This document shows, one piece after another, positions 576 to 61,277 of a DNA stretch of 64,000 bases (position 1 is the first letter of the stretch; each line of letters opens with the position of its first letter). The translations under genes were made by a program, and so were the position numbers. The DNA comes from an uncultured Actinomycetes bacterium (GTDB taxonomy: Bacteria; Actinomycetota; Acidimicrobiia; Spongiisociales; DATADW01). Under the pieces are notes generated by a model. It saw only the letters and a list, made by a program, of their open reading frames with translations, ran no database searches and had not been told where the DNA came from. The stretch covers positions 35,350 to 99,349 of the forward strand of contig CAVWWM010000010.1 in the NCBI GenBank assembly GCA_963758695.1, given 5' to 3'.

Positions 576-850
576 GTGACCTCGACCAGCTCGCCGCTCA
601 GCAGGTCGAGTACGAATTCCTTGTCGGAATGGGCGTCGGCTATCCATTCCGCCAAGGGGAGCCCTCGGCGCGCACCACCCACCATGCGAAATCGCGCCGG
701 CCGCTCCTTCGGAACTCGGCCCGGGCACTTGCGCGCTGCTTCCGCTGCCGCAACCGGAGTCTCGAAGGCGCCGAGGACGCGTGGCCGGGCAACTGCCGGG
801 GTGCCCCCCACACGGCCCCACACCTCGACGAACTCCACCGCTTCATACAT
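572..850 (-). CDS. Hypothetical protein, probably with internal compensating frameshifts
   Basis: 92-aa ORF co-oriented with neighbours; TACACT -10 upstream. Confidence 0.5.
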   Translation of the reverse strand: MYEAVEFVEVWGRVGGTPAVARPRVLGAFETPVAAAEAARKCPGRVPKERPARFRMVGGARRGLPLAEWIADAHSDKEFVLDLLSGELVEVT

Positions 851-907
851 CAGGCTCTCGTGGCGAGTGTATCCCCGCCCGAGCCTGATCCATGGCGGGC
901 GCCGGAG

Positions 908-2529
908 TCAATCGGACTGATCCTCCAGCAGATCGGAGAACTGGTCGCGCACCACCTTCTTGTCGAACTTGCCTGTCGCCGGTCTTGGGTATCTGCTCGA
1001 CGAGCAGCACCTTGTCGGGTAGCCACCACTTGGCGACCCGCTCAGCGAGGAACTCGATCAGCTCATCCTCTTCCGCCTCGGCGCCCGGTCTGAGGACGGC
1101 CAGCGCTACCGGTCGTTCCTGCCAACGGGGGTGCTTGAGCCCGACGACGGCGGCCTCGGCGACCGCCGGGTGGCCCATCAGAGTGTTCTCCAACTCCACC
1201 GACGAGATCCACTCGCCGCCCGACTTGATCAGGTCCTTGGCACGGTCGGTGATCTTGATGTACCCGTCGGGTGTGATCTTGCAGACGTCCCCGGTCCTCA
1301 TCCAACCGTCGGCAAAGGTCTGGGCGCTGCGCGGGTCGTGGAGGTACTCGGCCGCCACCCACGGACCGCGGATCAGCAACTCTCCGAACGCCTCACCGTC
1401 CTGGGGAAGCTCATCGCCCATCTCGTCGACGATCTTCACCTGGAGACCCGGCAGCGGCCGCCCCGCGGTCTCCAGCCGGTCGAGTTGCTGCTCGAAGTCC
1501 CATTCCTCCATCTCCGGCGTCAACGCCGGCCATCGAGGCGACCGGGTTGGTCTCGGTCATGCCCCACCCCTGGAGCACCCTGATGCCCCGGTTGCGCCAG
1601 TACCAATCGATCATCGCTCTGGGGACCGCCGACCCACCGCAGAGGAATCCCTGGATGCTCGACACATCCGCCTCGGGGTGATCGGCGAGGTACTGGGCGA
1701 TCCCCAGCCATACCGTCGGCACACCGGCCGAGAAGGTGACCCTCTCTCCTTCGATGAGGTCGACGATGCCCTTGGGGGACAGATCTGGCCCCGGGTAGGT
1801 GATCTTGGCGCCAGCGGTGGTGGCACTGAATGGGTAGCCCCAGGCGGCGGCATGGAACATGGGAACGACCGGTAGCACGTTGTCGGCTGGGCCGATGTGA
1901 AAGTTGGCAAGCCCCGAGATGGTGTGGAGATACGTGGAGCGCTGGGTGTAGGCGACGCCCTTGGGGTTGCCGGTGGTCCCCGACGTGTAGCAGTACATCA
2001 TCGGGCTTCGCTCGTCGAGCACCGGCCAGGCGCCATGCGGCTCGACTCCGTCGATCAACTCCTCGTAGGCGATCGCATTGGGCAGGCCAGAGGCGTCATC
2101 GCCCATGACGACGAATTGCTCGACCGTCTCCAACTGCGAGGAGATCGGCTCGACCAGTCCCACGAGGTCGGGGTCAACGAAAAGAACCCGGTCTCCGGCG
2201 TGGTTGACGATGTAGACGATCTGATCGGCGAAGAGCCGGATGTTGATCGTGTGACAGATCCGCCCGGTGTTGGCGGTGCTCCAGTAGAGCTCGTGGTGAC
2301 GCTGGTTGTTCCATGCGAAGGTCCCCACCGGCTCACCGACCCCGACGCCTAGGCGCTCGCCGAGAGCCGTCGCAAGCCTGCGCACTCTCTGGTCGGTCTC
2401 GCCGTAGCTGCTCCGCCTGATGCTCCGGTCGGCCTCGACCGAGACGATCTCGCGCTCGGGGTAGAGACGCACCGCCCTCTCATAGAGCGTCGAGAGCAAC
2501 AGCGGGAAGTCATCCATCATGTGCGGCAT
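908..2529 (-). CDS. Long-chain fatty acid-CoA ligase (frameshifts near 1520 and 975)
   Basis: YTSGTTGNPKG, GWGMTET, RTGD and DRAKDLIKSGGEWISS motifs over ORFs 1411-2529 and 843-1523; C-terminal GKFDKK lies in a third frame ending at 908. Confidence 0.92.
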
Positions 2530-2589
2530 TCGTCTCTCCCTGGCCTCGGATCGCCGATGCTATTCCGCGCGCTCTCGCCAAGACCGGCC

Positions 2590-2743
2590 AAACGCGGGAG
2601 AACCCCGAGTGAGCATCGGCGCGAACGCCGCCACCCTCTCGGGGCTCCCGGTCCCGCCCGCCTCCGACCGGGCGAACCCGGCCATCTGGCTGGCGGTGCG
2701 GTCTTTCGACCGCTGTCGCCTCCGGGGTGAGCCTTCGGCGACC
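2590..2743 (-). ncRNA. Putative structured ncRNA, copy B (~154 nt)
   Basis: Hairpins GCGGTC-GAAA-GACCGC, GGCCGGG-TTCG-CCCGGTC and CGGCG-TTCG-CGCCG inside a long 3' stem; TATGTT -10 at 2749-2754; similar to 3392-3547. Confidence 0.7.
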
Positions 2744-2804
2744 GGGGAAACATAGACGGGACCGGCACCTCACCCGGCTCGAAGCCAGGGGCGCTTTTCG
2801 CGAC

Positions 2805-3314
2805 TCAACCGGGATTTTCGCGGTCGGTGTGCATGGGGTGGCCGTTCTCCAGATAAGACGGGGAATCTCCCGTGCCGACGGCGAGCGCAGCCTCCATCCT
2901 CTTCCGTAGGTCGGGCTCGACCATGTCGAGCGCCTCGGCGGCGGCGAGAAAGGCGTGGCCCTTCAACTCGATGCGGGGTATCCGGATCCGGGAGATCTCA
3001 TCGGGTGCCAGGACGCCACCATCGAAGATCATCATCACCGCCTCGCTCCTGGTGCCTATCGCGGCGATGTAGTCGACACAGAGCAAGCGGCCCGGCGCAC
3101 GGCGAAGCCCGACCTCTTCGTCGACCTCGCGTTCCAGAGCGCGGCGGGGTGACTCGTTGCGCCCGATCATCCCCCCAGGAATGCTCCACCCGCGCCGATA
3201 CGTCGGGTTGACGATCAGCAGCCGGCCGTCGCCGTCGTGGAGCAGCGAGCCGACGGCCATCCTTTTGCCGGGGAATGGTCTGGCAACGCGCCTGACCAGG
3301 TCGATCATGGGCAT
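2805..3314 (-). CDS. Nudix hydrolase
   Basis: Nudix box GGMIGRNESPRRALEREVDEEVG; start probably at 3314 or 3308. Confidence 0.9.
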   Translation of the reverse strand: MPMIDLVRRVARPFPGKRMAVGSLLHDGDGRLLIVNPTYRRGWSIPGGMIGRNESPRRALEREVDEEVGLRRAPGRLLCVDYIAAIGTRSEAVMMIFDGGVLAPDEISRIRIPRIELKGHAFLAAAEALDMVEPDLRKRMEAALAVGTGDSPSYLENGHPMHTDRENPG

Positions 3315-3391
3315 GTGGGGGAGTTTCGCACCTGCGATGCCTCGAGAAGAAGCGGGTACCCGGCGATGCACCCCGACAGATGCCATCCGAC

Positions 3392-3547
3392 AAATGAGAA
3401 GCCCCGAGGGAGCTCGTAGCCGAAGCTACCAACCCTCTCGGGGCTCTCCGCCGATCGTCACTCCGACCCGAAGGTCGTTCTTCCGACCGATCTTCCGGCT
3501 GACCCTCTCAGGTCCTCCGTTTCCTCCGGGGGTTGCCCCCCAGCGGC
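3392..3547 (-). ncRNA. Putative structured ncRNA, copy A (~156 nt)
   Basis: Near-consensus promoter upstream; four hairpins capped by GCAA, GAGA, TTCG and TTCG tetraloops; long 3' stem followed by ATTTG. Confidence 0.8.
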
Positions 3548-3554
3548 AAGCGGA

Positions 3555-3583
3555 AATGTAGGGCACCCCCATGGCCACGTCAA
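3555..3583 (-). promoter_or_regulatory. Housekeeping sigma promoter for ncRNA copy A
   Basis: TTGACG (3578-3583), 17-nt spacer, TACATT (3555-3560) on the minus strand. Confidence 0.8.
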
Positions 3584-3667
3584 CCTCCAGGCCATGTTTG
3601 GTTTCGCGATCTGTCACCTTTTTTCGCGCTCCGCTCTGGGGGCCCTGAGTGTCGAGAATCCCAGGCG

Positions 3668-3689
3668 TGTCATTCCCATGTCGTAGAGT
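3668..3689 (+). promoter_or_regulatory. RecA-NDp/PafBC-type promoter, leaderless transcript
   Basis: TGTCAT-N10-TAGAGT, then 7 nt to ATG 3697. Confidence 0.6.
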
Positions 3690-3696
3690 GCCCGCC

Positions 3697-4497
3697 ATGG
3701 GGCTTGAGACACTCTCACCGAGCCGAGCGAGCGATTTCAAGGTATGTCCGCAGCTCTTCAAGTTCCGCGCCATAGACCGGCTCCCCGAGCCGACCACCGT
3801 TTGGCAGGCACGCGGGACCACCGCTCATCTCGCCCTGCAGCGGTTGTACGACCTGCCATCCGACGAGCGGAGCCCGGAGGCGCTTTTCGACCTGTTCCGG
3901 GCGGCGTGGACCGAGCTGCGCACCGACGACGAGTTCGCCGGGCTATTCGCATCGCTCGAGGAGGAGCGTGCCTGGGGCATGCAGAGCCTGACCGTCCTCG
4001 CCAACTACTTCGGGCTCGAGGACCCGAGCGCTCTGCAACCGCTCGACCGGGAGCTCGACATGATCGAGGACCTCGACGGAATGACCATCCGCGGGATCCT
4101 CGACCGGATCGACGAGCTACCAGACGGCAGCCTGGTGATCACCGACTACAAGTCGGGCAAGGCACCGCCGGAGATCTTCGCCCTGCCGGCGTTCTTCGCC
4201 ATGAAGATCTACGCCGTCCTCATCAGACGACGGCTGGGAAAGACTCCAACGGAGCTGCGGCTTCTCTACCTATCCGGTCCCACCATGTACCGGCTACGAA
4301 TCGACGACCGCCAACTCGACGCCATGGAGCGGCAACTCCGGGCGCTGTGGCAGGCGATCGACCGAGCCATCGACCGCGAGCAGTTCCCGCCCCGCCCCGG
4401 GCGGCTGTGCGATTGGTGCTCGTTCCGCTCGATGTGCCCGGCGTGGGAGGTCGTCGAGGTGGCCGAGCCCGCCCTGCCGCTGGTGGTCAACGGGTAG
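3697..4497 (+). CDS. Stand-alone RecB-family PD-(D/E)XK nuclease with Fe-S cysteines
   Basis: LSPSRASDF..CP, GTTAH, RGILDRID, TDYKSG and C-terminal CDWCSFRSMC motifs. Confidence 0.92.
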   Translation: MGLETLSPSRASDFKVCPQLFKFRAIDRLPEPTTVWQARGTTAHLALQRLYDLPSDERSPEALFDLFRAAWTELRTDDEFAGLFASLEEERAWGMQSLTVLANYFGLEDPSALQPLDRELDMIEDLDGMTIRGILDRIDELPDGSLVITDYKSGKAPPEIFALPAFFAMKIYAVLIRRRLGKTPTELRLLYLSGPTMYRLRIDDRQLDAMERQLRALWQAIDRAIDREQFPPRPGRLCDWCSFRSMCPAWEVVEVAEPALPLVVNG

Positions 4498-4571
4498 GAC
4501 AAGGTGGACGGCGGTCGATTCTCGGTTCTTGCGTGGTGAGTCGAAGCACCAGTCACGGCGGACGGCCCTGG

Positions 4572-6905
4572 TCAGGCGGCTTGGACTGCTCCGGTCGTCG
4601 GCTCCAGTGCCAACTCGATCACCATTCCGACCTCGTCTACCGGGTGGAAGGTCATCTCGGCCCGGACCGTCTCGGGGACGTCGTCGAGGTCATATTCGTT
4701 GCGGAGCGGGAAGATCACCTCACGGATACCGCCCCGATGGGCCGCCAGCACCTTCTGCTTGAGGCCACCGATCGGTAGTACCCGGCCCTGGAGCGTGATC
4801 TCGCCGGTCATGGCCACGTCGTGGCGCACCCGCCTACCGGTGAGGAGGCTGACCAGTGCGGTGGTCATGGCAATCCCCGCCGACGGGCCGTCCTTGGGAA
4901 CGGCTCCAGCCGGAACGTGGAGGTGGAATCGCCTCTCCAGCGCGGCGGGGTCGATCCCCAGATCGATGGCGTGCGAACGCACGTAGGAGAGGGCGATCTG
5001 CGCCGACTCCTTCATGACGTCGCCCAGTTGTCCGGTGATTGCCAGACCGGGTTCGCCATCCATCACCTGTGCCTCGACGAACAGGATGTCGCCACCGGTC
5101 CCTGTCACGGCGAGGCCCGTGACCACGCCGGGAGCCTCGGTGCGGTCGGCGGCTTCCTCCCGATACACGGTGGGCCGGCCGACCAGGTCCTTGAGGTCGT
5201 CGCGGTCGACCACGACGGGGATGTCTTGGCCGGCAGCGACCTTGGTGGCCACCTTGCGGACGAGCTTCCCCAGGACCCTCTCAAGACCGCGCACCCCGGC
5301 TTCACGGGTGTATCCGTCGATGAGGGCATCGAGCGCCCCGCCGGTCACTTCGATCTCGTCAGGACGGAGCCCGGAAGAATCGATCTGGCGTCCCAGCAAG
5401 TGACGCCGGGCGATCTCGACCTTCTCGACGTCGGTGTAACCGTCGATCCGAATCACTTCTGTCCGGTCGAGCAGCGGCGCCGGGATCGTCTCGAGCACAT
5501 TGGCGGTGCCGATGAAGAGGACATCGGAGAGGTCCAGATCAACCTCTAGATAGTGATCGCGGAATGTGTGGTTCTGCGCCGGGTCGAGCACCTCGAGCAA
5601 AGCCGACGAGGGGTCGCCCCTCCAGTCGGCACCGACCTTGTCCATCTCATCGAGCAGGAAGACCGGATTCATCGTGCCCGCCTCGACCAGGGCTCGCGCG
5701 ATACGGCCGGGTCGAGCGCCGACATAGGTGCGCCGGTGGCCGCGGATCTCTGCCTCGTCGCGCACTCCACCGAGGGCGACCCTCACAAACGAACGCCCCA
5801 TGGCCTTCGCCACCGACTCGCCGAGCGAGGTCTTCCCGACCCCAGGCGGCCCGGCGAGAAGGAGGATGGCACCGGTGCGCCTGCCCTCCTCGGGCTGCAC
5901 CCCGCGCTCCTGGCGGAGCTTGCGGACCGCCAGGTGCTCGAGGATGCGCTCCTTGACATCCTCCAGACCGGTGTGGTCGGCGTCGAGCACGCCCTTGGCG
6001 TCTTCGAGCTCGAGGTGGTCATCCGAGGTCTGGCCCCAGGGAAGGTCGAACATGGTGTCGAGCCAGGTGCGAATCCAGCTGTGCTCGGGGCTTTGCTCGC
6101 CGACCCGCTCCAACCGGTCGATCTCCCGGGCTACCGCCTCCTTGACCTTTTCCGGGAGGTCGGTCTCCTCGAGCTTCGTCCGGTATTCACCAGCGACGTC
6201 GCCGTCGTCTTCGCCGAGCTCCTTCCGAATGGCGGCCATCTGCTGGCGCAGCACATACTCCCGCTGGCCTTTGTCGAGCCGTTCCGCTGCGTCCTCGCGC
6301 ACCTTCTCGCGGAGGCTGAGCTCGCCGAGGACCGCCCCCATCCAGTCGAGCAGCATCGTGAGCCGCCGCTCGACCGAAAGGGTCTCCAACAGCTCGACCT
6401 TCTGGCCAAGAGTCAGGTCGGGCGAGTACGCGGCGAGGTCGGCTAGCTCACCTGGATCGTCCACCGCCAGCAACCGCTCGGCCAGGGCGGCAACCCCGCG
6501 GTGTTCGAGTATGGCGCCGATGACGGCGCGGTACTCGGCGGCCAGCGCTGCGATCTGCTCCGGGTCCTCGACGAGAGGCTCGTCGAGGATCTCGATTTCC
6601 ACCAAGAGGGCGTCGGCGTCGCCGATCTGCCCGGCCCCGACCCTGGCGCGGGCCAGACCCCTGACCAGGGCGCCACGCACCGAACCGGTGTTCTCGACCT
6701 GCTCGAGAGTCGCAACGGTGCCGACCTTGGCGTACTCGCCATCGATCCGAGGCACCAGCAGGACCCGCCCGGACCCGTCCTGAGCAGCGGCGACAGCGCG
6801 TCGAGCCTCCGAGGACTCGAGGGCAATGGTCACGACCATCCCCGGGAATACGACCCCGTTGCGCAGAGGCAGAACAGGCAGCGTCAGCGTCGCCGAATTC
6901 GACAT
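4572..6905 (-). CDS. lon: ATP-dependent protease La (Lon)
   Basis: GPPGVGKTS Walker A, LLDEMDK, PKDGPSAG catalytic Ser, IGGLKQK; 777 aa. Confidence 0.97.
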   Translation of the reverse strand: MSNSATLTLPVLPLRNGVVFPGMVVTIALESSEARRAVAAAQDGSGRVLLVPRIDGEYAKVGTVATLEQVENTGSVRGALVRGLARARVGAGQIGDADALLVEIEILDEPLVEDPEQIAALAAEYRAVIGAILEHRGVAALAERLLAVDDPGELADLAAYSPDLTLGQKVELLETLSVERRLTMLLDWMGAVLGELSLREKVREDAAERLDKGQREYVLRQQMAAIRKELGEDDGDVAGEYRTKLEETDLPEKVKEAVAREIDRLERVGEQSPEHSWIRTWLDTMFDLPWGQTSDDHLELEDAKGVLDADHTGLEDVKERILEHLAVRKLRQERGVQPEEGRRTGAILLLAGPPGVGKTSLGESVAKAMGRSFVRVALGGVRDEAEIRGHRRTYVGARPGRIARALVEAGTMNPVFLLDEMDKVGADWRGDPSSALLEVLDPAQNHTFRDHYLEVDLDLSDVLFIGTANVLETIPAPLLDRTEVIRIDGYTDVEKVEIARRHLLGRQIDSSGLRPDEIEVTGGALDALIDGYTREAGVRGLERVLGKLVRKVATKVAAGQDIPVVVDRDDLKDLVGRPTVYREEAADRTEAPGVVTGLAVTGTGGDILFVEAQVMDGEPGLAITGQLGDVMKESAQIALSYVRSHAIDLGIDPAALERRFHLHVPAGAVPKDGPSAGIAMTTALVSLLTGRRVRHDVAMTGEITLQGRVLPIGGLKQKVLAAHRGGIREVIFPLRNEYDLDDVPETVRAEMTFHPVDEVGMVIELALEPTTGAVQAA

Positions 6906-6981: not shown

Positions 6982-7080
6982 CGGAAGACGGAAGACGGAA
7001 GACGGAAGTCGGAAGTGAGAACGACCAGGCAGTTCCACATTTGTGTCCGCCGTCTGCCGTCTGCCGTCGCGTCGCCGTCT
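6982..7080. repeat. Heptamer tandem repeats in roughly inverted arrangement
   Basis: (CGGAAGA)3(CGGAAGT)2 at 6982-7016 and (CYGCCGT)3 at 7047-7067. Confidence 0.75.
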
Positions 7081-26124: not shown

Positions 26125-26218
26125 GTGGGGACGGTACAAGAGAAGACGGAAGACGGAAGACGAGCCTCCACCGGTGAGGGGGTCCGGCGCGAGCGCAGCG
26201 AGCGGACGAGGTGACAAC

Positions 26219-26291
26219 GCACCGTTGGGAGTTCGGTAGCCCCCCTACCCGCTGCTGCGCAGCGGGACCCTTCCCCCTGCGGGGGGACGGA
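26219..26291 (+). repeat. REP-like dispersed repeat, copy 1
   Basis: ~73 bp, near-identical to the reverse complement of 61205-61277; flanked by GAAGACG and GCCGTC(T/G) heptamer runs. Confidence 0.85.
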
Positions 26292-26342
26292 TTCGGATTG
26301 GCTGCCGTCTGCCGTCGGCCGTCGGCCGTCTGCCGTCCGCCG

Positions 26343-42700: not shown

Positions 42701-44325
42701 TCGCCGGGCTCCAACTCGGTGAAGTAGGTCCGCACCAGGTCGCGCGAGGCCGGCGGAACCGTGAGCCGGTCGAATGCTTCGAGCGCTGCGCTCTGGTACT
42801 CGGCGAATCGCTCGGTGTATGGCGCCAGCGGCACATTCCTCAGCCCTTCACCCTCGACCCGTCCCCTCAACTCGCCCGGATCGAGACCTTCGAGACGCAC
42901 CCGCACCTCTTCGCCCTCCTCGAAGCCAACAGGGTCGAAGACGCTCACCCGGTCGGGCTCCTGGGCGGGGTCCTGGTCCCCGGTGCCACCCTGAACGGTG
43001 CCGTCGCCGCTGGCGGGATCGGGGGTCCCCGGGACCTGTGACCCCCCGGCACCCTGCCCGCCGCCCCCGCCGCCGGCACCCTGACCCTGACCTTGCCCCT
43101 GGTCCCTGGCCTTGCCCCTGCCCTTGGCCTTGTCCCTGGCCTTGGCCCTGGCCCTGGCCTTGCCCTTGACCCTGACCCTGCCCTGGCCCTGGCCTTCGCC
43201 CTGGCCTCTCTCCCTCGCCCTCTCCTTGTCCTTCGCCCTCCGCCTCACCGGTTCGCTGACTGTCCAACCGCTCCTGTGCGTCGCGCACCGCCGAGCGCGC
43301 CTGGGACTGCGGCTTCTGCCTCTGCAGCCTCCGACGTCGCCCTGTCCAGCTCGTCGGCGGCATGGCTCAGCGACTGTTCGCCCCCGGCTCCACCCCGTTG
43401 CAAATCGTCAGCCGCCCCTTCCAACGCCTCGGCCAGGTCGCCATCGATCCCTTGGAAGTCCTCGGCACGTTGCGCCAACTCGTCGGCTGCGGTCTCCAAC
43501 TCGGCGGGGGTCATCTCGCCCGCCCGCGGAGGCGAGGTCGCGAAGTTGGTCGGCCGCCGACTCGCCCTCCCCCAGCGGCTCCTGCTGCAGGCGGCGTTCC
43601 ATCCCGGCGAGCGCCGTTCGCCTCGCAAGCTCGGCGGGGTCGGATTGGGCGGCGAGCCTCTCCCGTGCCTCGCCGAGGCGGGCCAGCGCCTCATCGATGT
43701 CGTGCTGACTCACGCAGCCGGCGAGCAGTGTCCTCCAGTTGGCGCGCACCTCCTCGGGGAGGTCCGCCGCTTCCGCTTCGAGACGCTGTGCCTCCCGCTC
43801 GATCGCCTCGGACTGCCGATTTCTTTCCTGCAGCGCGGCGTCCGCCGGCGAAGGGATGAGTGCCAGGGTGAGAGCGGCGGCGACCCCGAGCGCGGCCAGC
43901 CAAGGCAAAGCCCCGCCGGTGATCACCGGACCGAGCGCCGTCGGATCCCGTCGCTCGGCCCATGCTGCTGCCGCGGTGACCTGGCGCCTTTCGGGCTCGC
44001 TCAGGTCGGGCCGGTCGACCAGCTCGAGGGCGGTGGAAACCCGGTCGTAGCCACCGAGGCGGCGGTCCGCCTCGAGAGCGGCCCGACCAAGCGAGGGGCG
44101 GCGTATCAGGGTCACCAATGCCACGACCACAAGCGCCGCCGCCAGGGTGAGAAGCGCAGCCGCCTCGGCCCAGGGAAGGATCACCATGCGACCAACGGCG
44201 AACACAGCAGCCGCCGCCACTGCGACCACCGCCACAGTGGTCAGCAGGCGCACCCACAAGGCGGCCAAGGTGAGCCGGCGACGAGCCACCGCCAGCAGGG
44301 ATCTGATCGACTCAGGCAGCGGCAT
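42697..44325 (-). CDS. Membrane-anchored coiled-coil protein with (GQ)n linker (several frameshifts)
   Basis: N-terminal TMs with DRVSTALE, helical middle, GQ repeats, C-terminal VPP..RDLVRTYF. Confidence 0.7.
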
Positions 44326-52175: not shown

Positions 52176-52473
52176 TTGGCCCGTGGGGGGGACGACCCCC
52201 CTACACCCCCCCGCCGGCCCGCAGTGCGCTCGCTGCACCTGGGGAAGGGGAGAGCGCGTCGCTTGACCTCTCGATCGGTTGGCCCGTGGGGGGGACGACC
52301 CCCCCTACACCCCCGCCGGCCCGCGGTGCGCTCGCTGCCACTGGGAAGGCGGGAGCGCGTCGCTTGACCCTCGATTGGCTCGTGGGGGGGACGACCCCCA
52401 AGACCCCCGCCGGCCCGCAGTGCTCTCTCGCTGCACCTGGGAAGGCGGGAGCACGTCGTTTGACTCTCAATCG
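52176..52473 (+). repeat. Three tandem ~100-bp REP-like units
   Basis: Units start at 52176, 52279 and 52375 with TTGGCYCGTGGGGGGGACGACCCCC and end with GCRCGTCGYTTGAC; no spacers. Confidence 0.9.
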
Positions 52474-61172: not shown

Positions 61173-61204
61173 GAGAAGACGGGGACGGCGGACGGCAACA
61201 CGAC

Positions 61205-61277
61205 TCCGTCCCCCCGCAGGGGGGAAGGGTCCGCTGCGGAGCAGCGGGTAGGGGGGCTACCGAACTCCCAACCGTGC
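61205..61277 (-). repeat. REP-like dispersed repeat, copy 2
   Basis: Near-identical reverse complement of 26219-26291; a related double-hairpin element follows at about 61315-61367. Confidence 0.85.

What the first reader, a model, noticed from the sequence alone, without database searches (positions are those of the whole stretch)
2590..3583. Two related ~155-nt structured RNA genes in tandem, bracketing a Nudix hydrolase: candidate new ncRNA family
Seen in sequence: both intergenic regions flanking the Nudix gene read, on the minus strand, as the same kind of element. They share length (~154 and ~156 nt) and ordered motifs: CCCCGGAGG, a GNRA hairpin, a UUCG hairpin followed by GGTCGGAG, and an identical 15-mer GAGCCCCGAGAGGGT (2633-2647 and 3432-3446). 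The 3' hairpin keeps its shape while the sequence changes: GTAGC-TTCG-GCTAC versus CGGCG-TTCG-CGCCG, with a 1x1 mismatch and a 2x2 loop at equivalent positions. The closing stem also swaps (GCCG/CGGC versus GGTC/GACC). Inference: these compensatory changes point to selection on RNA structure. I recognise no match to SRP, 6S/Ms1, tmRNA, RNase P, 6C or a riboswitch I know. They could be protein-binding sRNAs or cis leaders. A functional link to the Nudix enzyme (RNA 5'-end processing) or to the divergent RecB-family nuclease is speculation.
Basis: partly seen in the sequence, partly recalled or inferred. Interest (0 to 1): 0.85.

Follow-up and report, generated by a model that had tools for sequence, protein, structure and literature searches.

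The report
New structured small-RNA family in Acidimicrobiia
The two elements are real sibling genes for highly folded small RNAs that belong to a previously undescribed family found in nearly every genome of one order of Acidimicrobiia, each copy with its own conserved promoter and a shared 3' hairpin; what the RNAs do is still unknown.

Summary
On the minus strand, copy A (about 3548-3392) and copy B (about 2743-2588) each fold into four successive hairpins. Both end in the same conserved 3' hairpin, here called P4. No Rfam family matches them.

They are members of a larger family. A covariance model of P4 hits 136 of 151 genomes of the same order (66 of 69 genera), with 1-8 copies per genome, usually 2, clustered on one strand. 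Outside the order only weak hits appear.

In 80 of 94 copies an exact pair of CGCGAAA boxes precedes a TTG -35 and a TAnnnT -10 at fixed distances. In this genome that box pair occurs only upstream of A and B.

The roughly 155-nt form that includes copy A shows strong covariation: 26 of 47 pairs carry compensatory changes.

The Nudix gene lies between the copies only in this genus. The conserved neighbour is a PD-(D/E)XK nuclease gene.

Best reading: independently transcribed, regulator-controlled structured sRNA genes, with P4 serving as terminator and probable protein handle. A role as cis-acting leaders is not excluded.

The parts
3392..3548 (-). Copy A, predicted RNA of about 155 nt (type I). 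Four hairpins: P1 with a GCAA loop, P2 with a GAGA loop, P3 with a UUCG loop, and P4.
   Evidence: Sequence; folds; full-length model R2 scores it 105 bits, E 2.5e-25; covariation of type I. Both ends are predicted, not mapped.
3396..3449 (-). P4 of copy A: the conserved 3' hairpin, followed by a U-rich tail.
   Evidence: R1 match at G000:C10:38728-38803, 67.6 bits; alignments A2 and A3.
3555..3583 (-). Promoter of copy A: TTGACG, 17 nt, TACATT.
   Evidence: Consensus scan; the same layout is seen in 70-74 of 80 family units.
3602..3628 (-). Pair of CGCGAAA boxes upstream of copy A, 20 nt start to start; the second box ends 41 nt before the -10.
   Evidence: This is one of only two such pairs in the whole assembly.
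2588..2743 (-). Copy B, predicted RNA of about 150 nt. It has the same four-hairpin layout with a different 5' domain, and lies 60 nt upstream of the acyl-CoA-ligase-like ORF.
   Evidence: Sequence; folds. RNA-library contigs of 171, 178 and 232 nt lie on 2555-2733, 2555-2731 and 2485-2725, and a 99-nt contig identical to the window lies on 2616-2714.
2596..2650 (-). P4 of copy B.
   Evidence: R1 match at G000:C10:37928-38004, 68 bits.
2749..2754 (-). Predicted -10 hexamer (TATGTT) of copy B. The -35 position reads CCGGGT, which is a poor match.
   Evidence: Read from the sequence; its distance from the boxes is the same as in copy A.
2796..2822 (-). Pair of CGCGAAA boxes upstream of copy B. 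It overlaps the stop codon of the Nudix ORF.
2805..3386 (-). Nudix hydrolase ORF between the two copies (start codon uncertain). This is a genus-specific insertion, not part of the family's conserved context.
   Evidence: Pfam NUDIX, E 5.6e-12. It lies between the RNAs only in the same-genus loci.
3649..4497 (+). Divergent PD-(D/E)XK (RecB/Cas4-like nuclease domain) gene, the conserved neighbour of the RNA cluster.
   Evidence: Pfam PDDEXK_1, E 5.4e-36. Found at 56-79% identity next to the RNAs in 32 of 44 loci.
843..2529 (-). AMP-binding (fatty-acid-CoA-ligase-like) gene downstream of copy B. In this assembly it is split into two frames: 1411-2529 and 843-1523.
   Evidence: Pfam and NCBIfam; it lies downstream of the cluster in 13 of 44 loci.

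Best explanation
Copies A and B are two sibling genes for stand-alone, highly structured small RNAs. The family is restricted to one order of Acidimicrobiia.

Each gene is its own transcription unit. Two CGCGAAA boxes, 20-21 bp apart, probably bind a dedicated transcription factor. They sit 41-42 bp upstream of the -10 of a sigma-A-type promoter. Transcription starts about 7 nt after the -10.

The RNA folds into a variable 5' domain built of hairpins capped by UUCG or GNRA tetraloops. This domain is about 100 nt in A and B and up to about 550 nt in relatives. The RNA ends in the invariant roughly 27-bp hairpin P4, followed by a short U-rich tail.

P4 is the one part shared by all members, and its helix is conserved in sequence, not only in pairing. 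I therefore read it as an intrinsic, partly leaky terminator that also serves as the handle for a common partner, most likely a protein. On this reading the RNAs act in trans as ribonucleoprotein regulators or sequestering RNAs, and gene dosage is adjusted by tandem duplication.

Shown: the existence of the family, its strand, its structure, its promoter layout, its copy number, its distribution and its synteny.

Inferred: the transcript ends, the transcription factor, termination at P4, the protein partner and action in trans.
For: - Distribution. P4 model R1 hits 136 of 151 genomes of the order and 66 of 69 genera, with 1-8 clustered same-strand copies per genome. In the class sample only 2 of 114 genomes outside the order hit, both weakly. 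In the phylum sample the 6 hits outside the order were all at E>1e-4.
- Strand. Forward matches score 37-85 bits and their reverse complements at most 33 bits. One G-U pair is invariant in 23 of 23 sequences.
- Own promoters. 80 of 94 P4 modules in 44 loci have an exact box pair upstream. The spacing is 20 nt (42 units) or 21 nt (38 units). The distance to the -10 is 41-42 nt in 77 of 80. TAnnnT is present in 74 of 80 and a TTG -35 in 70 of 80. In G000 the box pair occurs only upstream of A and B.
- Structure. In type I, 95.6% of cells are paired against 85.6+-0.6% in shuffles. 26 of 47 pairs carry double changes against 17.9+-1.9 in shuffles (0 of 500 shuffles reach it). Slid controls give 2-17.
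- Loops. Of 561 predicted hairpin loops in 75 RNAs, 209 are UUCG, 73 GCAA, 63 GAGA and 51 GAAA.
- Independence from any one downstream gene. The next gene is Nudix or an acyl-CoA ligase in this genus. Elsewhere it is a bPH_2/SHOCT membrane protein, a methyltransferase, an ECF sigma factor, the PD-(D/E)XK gene (one unit is inverted in G030) or another RNA unit.
- Arrays. Up to 8 near-identical units occur in one genus.
- Full-length type I copies occur away from the main locus, with their own boxes.
- RNA-library contigs of 171-232 nt start 10-18 nt downstream of copy B's predicted start (one study, contigs only).
Against: - No transcript end has been mapped. The RNA-library contigs run 35-105 nt past P4 (to 2555 and 2485). 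One deeper-run contig crosses the predicted start of B (2720-2867). P4 is therefore not a tight terminator in those samples, and DNA carry-over cannot be excluded.
- The last unit of a cluster is always followed by a co-directional ORF. The gap is 30-140 nt after the P4 match in the loci, and 60 nt for B. That also fits a leader.
- The simple terminator scan flags only copy A. The U-tail is short and interrupted.
- No partner protein or transcription factor has been identified.
- Complete genomes of one family of the order lack the RNA at this locus, so it is dispensable there.
- GGAG motifs, my first idea for a repeated protein site, are barely enriched: 264 against 231+-12.
Confidence: 0.5

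Rival explanations
1. The elements are cis-acting 5' leaders. P4 is a conditional terminator (attenuator) controlled by a protein or ligand that binds the 5' domain or the invariant 5' arm of P4. It sets read-through into the gene that follows: Nudix and the acyl-CoA ligase here, the bPH_2 membrane protein and the ligase elsewhere.
For: - Each copy here is followed directly by a co-directional ORF: B by the ligase start after 60 nt, A by the Nudix ORF.
- In 8 of 10 other loci a conserved 'M(G/S/A)YP...FRPHW' ORF starts 30-140 nt after the last P4 match.
- RNA-library contigs continue past P4, one of them 44 nt into the ligase ORF.
- The 5' arm of P4 (CCCCGAGAGGG) is invariant and could also form a small CCC-GAGA-GGG hairpin like P2. 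Alternative pairing of this kind is expected of an attenuator.
Against: - Units have their own promoters and occur as arrays of up to 8, most of them followed by another unit and not by a gene.
- The 5' domains differ in kind and in size, from 114 to 609 nt in total length. There is therefore no single aptamer.
- Downstream genes are functionally unrelated.
- One unit is inverted in G030.
- The downstream genes may have their own -10 elements in the tail region. I read this from the sequences; it was not tested.
Confidence: 0.25
2. The RNAs are the RNA partners (substrate mimic, inhibitor or guide) of the neighbouring PD-(D/E)XK nuclease.
For: - The nuclease gene lies next to the cluster in 32 of 44 loci. 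Most of the remaining loci are cut before the gene could appear.
- Adjacency survives changes of relative orientation in G030 and G017/G123.
- The box pair lies within about 20-110 nt of the nuclease start, so one regulator could control both.
Against: - Orthologues occur in 58 of 121 genomes of the phylum.
- None of the 16 loci examined outside the order has boxes next to them, and predicted tetraloop hairpins there number 0-3, against 9 at the same-order locus of G020 (two of the 16 loci are from unpublished genomes).
- Complete genomes of family f10 keep the nuclease without the RNA.
- Extra RNA copies sit at loci without the nuclease.
- The protein shows only a nuclease domain.
Confidence: 0.07
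3. The RNAs are functional analogues of 6S or Ms1 RNA: abundant RNAs that bind RNA polymerase.
For: - Rfam's 6S model finds nothing in 5 of 5 genomes of the order, while the control genomes do respond. The niche may therefore be open.
- The RNAs are near-universal in the order and have strong promoters.
- Ms1 homologues are known to share no detectable sequence similarity between genera (passages of PMC9130861).
- 'PH' is one of that paper's synteny phrases, and a bPH_2 gene follows the cluster here.
Against: - The predicted and covariation-supported fold is a row of separate hairpins, not a rod with a central bubble.
- The hallmark Ms1 neighbour, a HAD-IB hydrolase, is not at this locus.
- Sizes range from 114 to 609 nt.
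Confidence: 0.08
4. The elements are a REP/MITE-like mobile element, or simply a conserved terminator module without an RNA function of its own.
For: - P4 is a long GC-rich hairpin with a U-rich tail.
- Tandem duplication is frequent.
- One extra copy lies 1.2 kb from an integrase gene.
Against: - This genome has two copies, both at one syntenic locus on one strand.
- The family is conserved across 66 of 69 genera at the same locus.
- Each copy comes with a promoter.
- Covariation extends through the 5' domain.
Confidence: 0.03

Closest known systems
Sibling or sequestering sRNA families with a dedicated upstream activating site (RsmX/Y/Z, CsrB/C, Qrr1-5, LhrC1-5). Their properties are recalled from general knowledge and come from no call.
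   Same: - Several paralogous sRNA genes per genome, sometimes in tandem.
- Each has its own promoter carrying a conserved regulator site.
- Each has a terminator hairpin.
- Members differ in size but share modules.
   Different: - No CsrA was found in this genome (the assembly is 72% complete).
- No clearly enriched short single-stranded motif was found.
- The shared module is a sequence-invariant 3' hairpin, not loop motifs.
- The bodies are dominated by UUCG/GNRA-capped helices, with covariation typical of complex-folded RNAs.
Ms1 RNA and 6S RNA (RNA-polymerase-binding RNAs). I read passages of PMC9130861.
   Same: - Abundant-type, structured, lineage-wide non-coding RNAs of Actinomycetota or of bacteria in general.
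- Ms1 homologues are recognisable by synteny and not by sequence.
- No 6S match was found in this order.
   Different: - The fold is a row of hairpins, not a rod with a central bubble.
- The gene neighbourhood is different.
- Several copies and size classes occur per genome.
- Binding to RNA polymerase is untested.
Orphan large structured ncRNAs such as the raiA motif. I read passages of PMC10861870.
   Same: - Widespread within a lineage, highly structured and of unknown biochemical function.
- That paper reports the raiA motif in Acidimicrobiia.
   Different: - Rfam's raiA model gave no match on these loci.
- It gave no match in 5 genomes of the order either, but that search also rang in none of the control genomes, so it is uninformative.
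- raiA has a single conserved architecture, whereas here only P4 is common to all members.
Protein-dependent antitermination leaders (RAT/terminator systems of the LicT/SacY type). Recalled from general knowledge; from no call.
   Same: A sequence-conserved element overlaps the 5' arm of a terminator hairpin upstream of genes.
   Different: - No antiterminator protein has been identified.
- Units occur in arrays with their own promoters.
- Downstream genes are unrelated to one another.

Membership tests
Any Rfam 15 family | A match to a curated covariance model | tested here: not met
   No match at gathering score in the 64-kb window. At E<=10 nothing lies on the RNAs' predicted bodies; the one hit nearby (mir-9279, 19 bits, 2756-2808) overlaps copy B's promoter region. 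No match at E<=0.1 in 8 related loci.
6S RNA | A roughly 180-nt rod-like hairpin with a central bubble; a match to RF00013 | tested here: not met
   RF00013 finds nothing in 5 of 5 genomes of the order, G000 included, while it rings in 5 of 14 control genomes. The consensus fold is four separate hairpins.
6S RNA / Ms1 RNA | Binds the RNA polymerase holoenzyme (6S) or core (Ms1) | not testable with these tools
   This needs RNA polymerase co-immunoprecipitation.
Ms1 RNA | Conserved neighbourhood with a HAD-IB hydrolase ('inhibition of morphological differentiation') and an oxidoreductase (PMC9130861, passages read) | tested here: not met
   The neighbours here are PD-(D/E)XK, Nudix, bPH_2/SHOCT, AMP-binding and Lon. 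Only the phrase 'PH' overlaps. I did not search for a HAD-IB gene elsewhere in these genomes.
CsrB/RsmZ-type sequestering sRNA | Many GGA motifs in loops or single strands, and a CsrA/RsmA protein in the genome | tested here: not met
   GGAG counts are 264 against 231+-12 in shuffles. PF02599 was not found in G000, which is 72% complete. Other genomes of the order were not searched.
Riboswitch or cis leader | One conserved ligand-binding domain upstream of functionally related genes, with an expression platform | tested here: inconclusive
   P4 could be an expression platform, and ORFs do follow the last unit. But the 5' domains are of several unrelated kinds and sizes, the downstream genes are unrelated, and most units in arrays precede another unit.
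REP / MITE | Many scattered copies, random in strand | tested here: not met
   This genome has two copies at E<=1, on the same strand and at the same locus. The position is syntenic across the order.
Stand-alone (sibling) sRNA genes | An own promoter and terminator for each copy, with discrete transcripts | tested here: inconclusive
   The promoter layout is conserved in 70-80 of 80 units, and the P4 hairpin with a U-rich tail is present in all. Discrete transcripts are not shown: only RNA-library contigs of 171-232 nt over copy B from one study.

The most novel reading that the evidence does not exclude
An order-wide RNA-protein system that has not been described. It would consist of modular structured RNAs of 110-600 nt that all carry one invariant 3' hairpin. 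A dedicated, still unknown protein would recognise that hairpin, and a dedicated regulator acting through the CGCGAAA box pair would switch the genes on. On this reading the hairpin works like the Hfq or ProQ handle of enterobacterial sRNAs, in a phylum in which no general sRNA chaperone is known (recalled from general knowledge, from no call). The variable 5' domains would carry the specific functions.
Probability: 0.3. Interest if true: 0.8.

Novelty: new member of a known kind. Interest (0 to 1): 0.65.

Why it matters
Acidimicrobiia are abundant, and the records I retrieved here are all uncultured assemblies. My searches turned up no paper on regulatory RNAs of this class.

This family is near-universal in one order. 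It has covariation-supported architecture, a recognisable promoter code and gene dosage that varies from 1 to 8 copies. Together these mark an RNA with an important, conserved role.

It also gives ready handles for finding that role:
- a transcription-factor site that occurs only at these genes;
- an invariant hairpin that can be used as bait for a partner protein.

In addition it supplies two covariance models that could be used to annotate these genes in hundreds of metagenome-assembled genomes.

Tried and rejected
- CsrB-like sponge with repeated GGAG sites. GGAG is barely enriched in the RNA bodies (264 against 231+-12), and no CsrA was found in G000. I dropped this as the leading idea.
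- Link to Nudix. The Nudix gene lies between the copies only in the genus of the window.
- raiA motif. The RF03072 search found nothing in 5 genomes, but it also rang in none of the control genomes, so it is uninformative. Rfam scans of the loci themselves also gave no raiA hit.
- Looking for the same RNA next to PD-(D/E)XK orthologues outside the order. 16 loci were examined and none had boxes or a tetraloop-rich region.
- Box-pair pattern across 400 genomes of the phylum. Outside the order there were only sporadic single matches. The reversed-pattern control also gave scattered single matches.
- Naming the transcription factor from the box sequence. A literature search for the box gave nothing relevant; I saw only the listing of titles and abstracts.
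- Literature searches for an earlier description ('Acidimicrobiia'+'noncoding RNA'+'motif'; 'Acidimicrobiales'+'small RNA'; 'Acidimicrobiia'+'sRNA'; 'sibling sRNAs'+'tandem'+'Actinobacteria') found no paper on this RNA.
- Metatranscriptome cover. The parts of the stretch without contigs (the Nudix body in runs X1-X3) are not evidence of anything.
- Small ORFs overlapping the elements (3426-3821 and 2510-2773, minus strand) have no Pfam match. The indels among relatives are not multiples of three. I rejected a coding reading.
Full report
**What is in the window**

These include the identical 15-mer at 3432-3446 and 2633-2647 and the swapped upper stem of the 3' hairpin.

Both regions fold better than dinucleotide shuffles, with z -4.69 and -3.23. 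Folded from their predicted starts, each gives four successive hairpins. In copy A these are P1 with a GCAA loop, P2 with a GAGA loop, P3 with a UUCG loop, and a long 3' hairpin that I call P4. Copy B has the same layout with a different 5' domain.

Rfam 15 has no match at gathering score in the whole window. At E<=10 nothing lies on the RNAs' predicted bodies.

The neighbours are as follows:
- a divergent PD-(D/E)XK nuclease-domain gene at 3649-4497;
- Lon at 4572-6905;
- the Nudix gene between the copies;
- an AMP-binding, fatty-acid-CoA-ligase-like gene 60 nt downstream of copy B.

**How alike are A and B**

By plain BLAST only the P4 part of B resembles A (E 0.019 in the genome). Two separate shared 8-mers arise in 4% of dinucleotide shuffles, and a shared 9-mer in 10%.

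The relatedness of A and B therefore rests on three things: P4, the promoter architecture described below, and the common four-hairpin layout.

**The family**

BLAST of the locus against 40 relatives showed the whole locus in 5 of 5 same-genus genomes at 84-95% identity. The P4 segment alone appeared in many other genomes of the order, often two or three times a few hundred bases apart.

I aligned 27 P4 segments (A2). The 5' arm CCCCGAGAGGG and the 3' arm CTCGGGG are invariant in these, and the upper stem under a UUCG loop varies with compensation.

Results with model R1, built from that alignment:

| Search | Result |
|---|---|
| G000 itself, E<=1 | exactly two matches, plus the reverse complement of A at 24 bits |
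| Same order | 136 of 151 genomes, 66 of 69 genera; 1-8 copies, mostly 2, clustered on one strand |
| Class sample | 36 of 37 same-order genomes, G000 included; 2 of 114 from other orders, both at E about 3e-4 |
| Phylum sample | outside the order only 27-36-bit matches |

The order tally includes G000 and the two unpublished genomes G010 and G021.

On 51 loci the forward matches score 37-85 bits and their reverse complements at most 33 bits. The strand is therefore not in doubt.

Titles of public records that hold the P4 pattern are nearly all 'Acidimicrobiia bacterium' MAGs.

**Each unit has its own conserved promoter**

Upstream of nearly every unit lies a pair of direct CGCGAAA boxes, followed by a -35 and a -10 at fixed distances. 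Counts for the 94 P4 modules in 44 loci:

| Feature | Count |
|---|---|
| Exact box pair upstream | 80 of 94 |
| Box start-to-start spacing | 20 nt in 42 units, 21 nt in 38 |
| End of second box to -10 = 41-42 nt | 77 of 80 |
| TAnnnT -10 | 74 of 80 |
| TTG -35 | 70 of 80 |

In the G000 assembly the pair CGCGAAA-N8-20-CGCGAAA occurs only twice, upstream of A (3602-3628) and upstream of B (2796-2822). The pair for B overlaps the end of the Nudix ORF.

Copy A has TTGACG-17-TACATT. Copy B has TATGTT at the same distance but a poor -35, as expected of an activator-dependent promoter (this last point is inference).

Across 400 genomes of the phylum the box pair is common only in the order: 6 of 7 same-order genomes (G000 included) had 2-4 matches. 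Elsewhere there were scattered single matches, and the reversed-pattern control gave scattered single matches too.

**Sizes and build**

Predicted lengths of 75 non-redundant RNAs fall into two groups: 36 are 114-183 nt and the rest are 200-609 nt. Many genomes have one short and one long form. In G000 both are short.

Of 561 predicted hairpin loops, 209 are UUCG, 73 GCAA, 63 GAGA, 51 GAAA and 18 GUAA. A long form from a near-complete genome folds with z -9.95.

The 5' domains are of several kinds. Only the promoter and P4 are common to all.

**Covariation**

I aligned 23 short forms of the kind that includes copy A, which I call type I (A3). RNAalifold predicts 47 pairs, 26 of them with compensatory changes. 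The counting tool gave these figures:

| Measure | Observed | Control |
|---|---|---|
| Cells forming a standard pair | 95.6% | 85.6+-0.6% in shuffles |
| Pairs with a change on both sides | 26 | 17.9+-1.9 in shuffles (0 of 500 reach it) |
| Same measure, partners slid 1-3 columns | 26 | 2-17 |

Invariant unpaired or mismatched positions mark a GNRA loop in P1, the GAGA loop of P2 and a 2x2 internal loop in P3 (GGGAGACC opposite GGAGUUCC).

Even the invariant part of P4 shows rare compensated changes: G-C to A-U in two relatives and C-G to U-A in two others.

The full-length model R2 scores copy A at 105 bits. It finds full-length matches above 85 bits in at least six families of the order (f1, f2, f3, f4, f7, f12). 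Copy B's score lies below the 150 matches listed, the weakest of which scores about 54 bits; I take it to match mainly through P4.

**Genomic context**

The cluster sits at a conserved locus:
- The PD-(D/E)XK gene lies on one side, mostly divergent. It is present in 32 of 44 loci, and most of the others are cut short.
- In other genera, a roughly 200-aa membrane protein follows the last unit. In 8 of 10 loci it starts 30-140 nt after the last P4 match. The one tested has bPH_2 and SHOCT domains.
- The AMP-binding gene comes next (13 of 44 loci).

The Nudix gene lies between the units only in the genus of the window.

Orientation can change. One unit is inverted in G030 and then precedes the nuclease gene. 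In G017 and G123 the nuclease gene is co-directional with the RNAs.

Extra full-length type I copies lie at other loci. One, read in full in one genome, has its own boxes and sits upstream of a methyltransferase gene. Elsewhere a unit precedes an ECF sigma factor gene, and one copy lies 1.2 kb from an integrase gene.

Orthologues of the nuclease occur in 58 of 121 genomes of the phylum. In 16 loci examined outside the order their upstream regions have no boxes and few predicted tetraloop hairpins (two of these loci are from unpublished genomes). Five complete or near-complete genomes of family f10 that lack P4 have the nuclease next to an inverted AMP-binding gene, with no RNA between.

**Expression**

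Four rRNA-depleted metatranscriptome runs of one study hold parts of the stretch. They are kept as contigs. When laid on the stretch they give the following:

| Contig | Position | Likeness |
|---|---|---|
| 171 nt | 2555-2733 | 90-95% |
| 178 nt | 2555-2731 | 90-95% |
| 232 nt | 2485-2725 | 90-95% |
| 99 nt | 2616-2714 | identical |
| 62 nt | 3441-3480 (copy A) | above the 90% threshold; 2 other letters |
| 85 nt | 3451-3535 (copy A) | above the 90% threshold; 8 other letters |

The contigs over copy B begin 10-18 nt downstream of B's predicted start (2743). They run 35-105 nt past P4. One contig in the deepest run crosses the predicted start (2720-2867).

This shows that the region is present in RNA libraries and is compatible with a start near 2743. 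It also shows that P4 does not stop everything. Contigs cannot show ends, strand or level, and DNA carry-over is possible.

**Interpretation**

Four sets of facts are best explained by stand-alone RNA genes under one dedicated regulator:
- the conserved promoter code;
- arrays of up to eight units;
- the inverted and relocated units;
- the unrelated downstream genes and the several kinds of 5' domain.

Because P4 is shared by all members and conserved in sequence as well as in pairing, I take it to be both the terminator and the handle for a common partner, probably a protein. This is inference.

The main rival is a cis-acting leader or attenuator role for the last unit of a cluster. The short distance to the next ORF and the read-through contigs keep that rival alive. 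The two roles are not exclusive.

The rod-and-bubble fold of 6S or Ms1 is not seen, although Rfam's 6S model finds nothing in 5 genomes of the order. A CsrB-like model is weak. A REP/MITE reading is excluded by copy number and synteny.

**Novelty**

No Rfam family matches. Four literature searches found no description. Of the papers I opened, I read only passages of PMC10861870 and PMC9130861. Supplements were closed.

I rate this a new family of a known kind, structured bacterial sRNAs. It has unusual features: an invariant 3' handle, modular bodies and a private promoter code.

Noticed in passing
window 52186-52471: Three direct repeats of about 95-100 nt, each starting with a G-run/C-run hairpin and ending in GCGTCGCTTGAC (families D3, D11 and D14).
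   Followed up: no
window 26219-26307 and 61189-61277: An 89-nt inverted repeat, 87% complementary, with arms 35 kb apart (I1).
   Followed up: no
window 843-2529 (minus strand): The AMP-binding (acyl-CoA-ligase-like) gene is split into two overlapping frames here (1411-2529 and 843-1523). In same-genus relatives the N- and C-terminal matches lie in one frame. This is either a frameshift or an assembly error.
   Followed up: partly
window 43072-43207: A run of CCCTGG/CCTTGG-like units with 12- and 18-nt periodicity (D1 and D2). It probably encodes a Gly/Pro- or Gln-rich repeat.
   Followed up: no
window 6984-7018 and 26142-26162: The same GAAGACG heptamer repeat occurs at two places 19 kb apart (D15).
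   Followed up: no
tails after P4 in related loci, e.g. L053 at 1012, 1986, 2297 and 2608: The conserved tail after P4 (TTTCTCGCG or TTTTTCGCG) is the reverse complement, or nearly so, of the CGCGAAA promoter box. Each unit thus has two direct boxes upstream and one inverted box-like site downstream. This is unexplained.
   Followed up: partly
L084 and L085 (other families of the phylum and class): The weak R1 matches outside the order (33-35 bits) look like related hairpins, with the same lower stem or a compensated version of it. Distant relatives of P4 may exist beyond the order.
   Followed up: partly
L278 (G112:C6), RNA unit at about 2900-3075, ORF 4270-5331: An extra type I copy with its own box pair lies 1.2 kb upstream of a phage-integrase-family gene.
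   Followed up: partly
several genomes of family f41 (another class): A recurring box-like pair ending in ATGAGCGCGAAA turns up in four genomes of one other family, one of them unpublished. It may be an analogous regulator site.
   Followed up: no
L268-L271, about 100-150 nt upstream of the PD-(D/E)XK gene: Genomes of family f10 that lack the RNA share a TGTAACTATA motif in the short region upstream of the nuclease gene.
   Followed up: no
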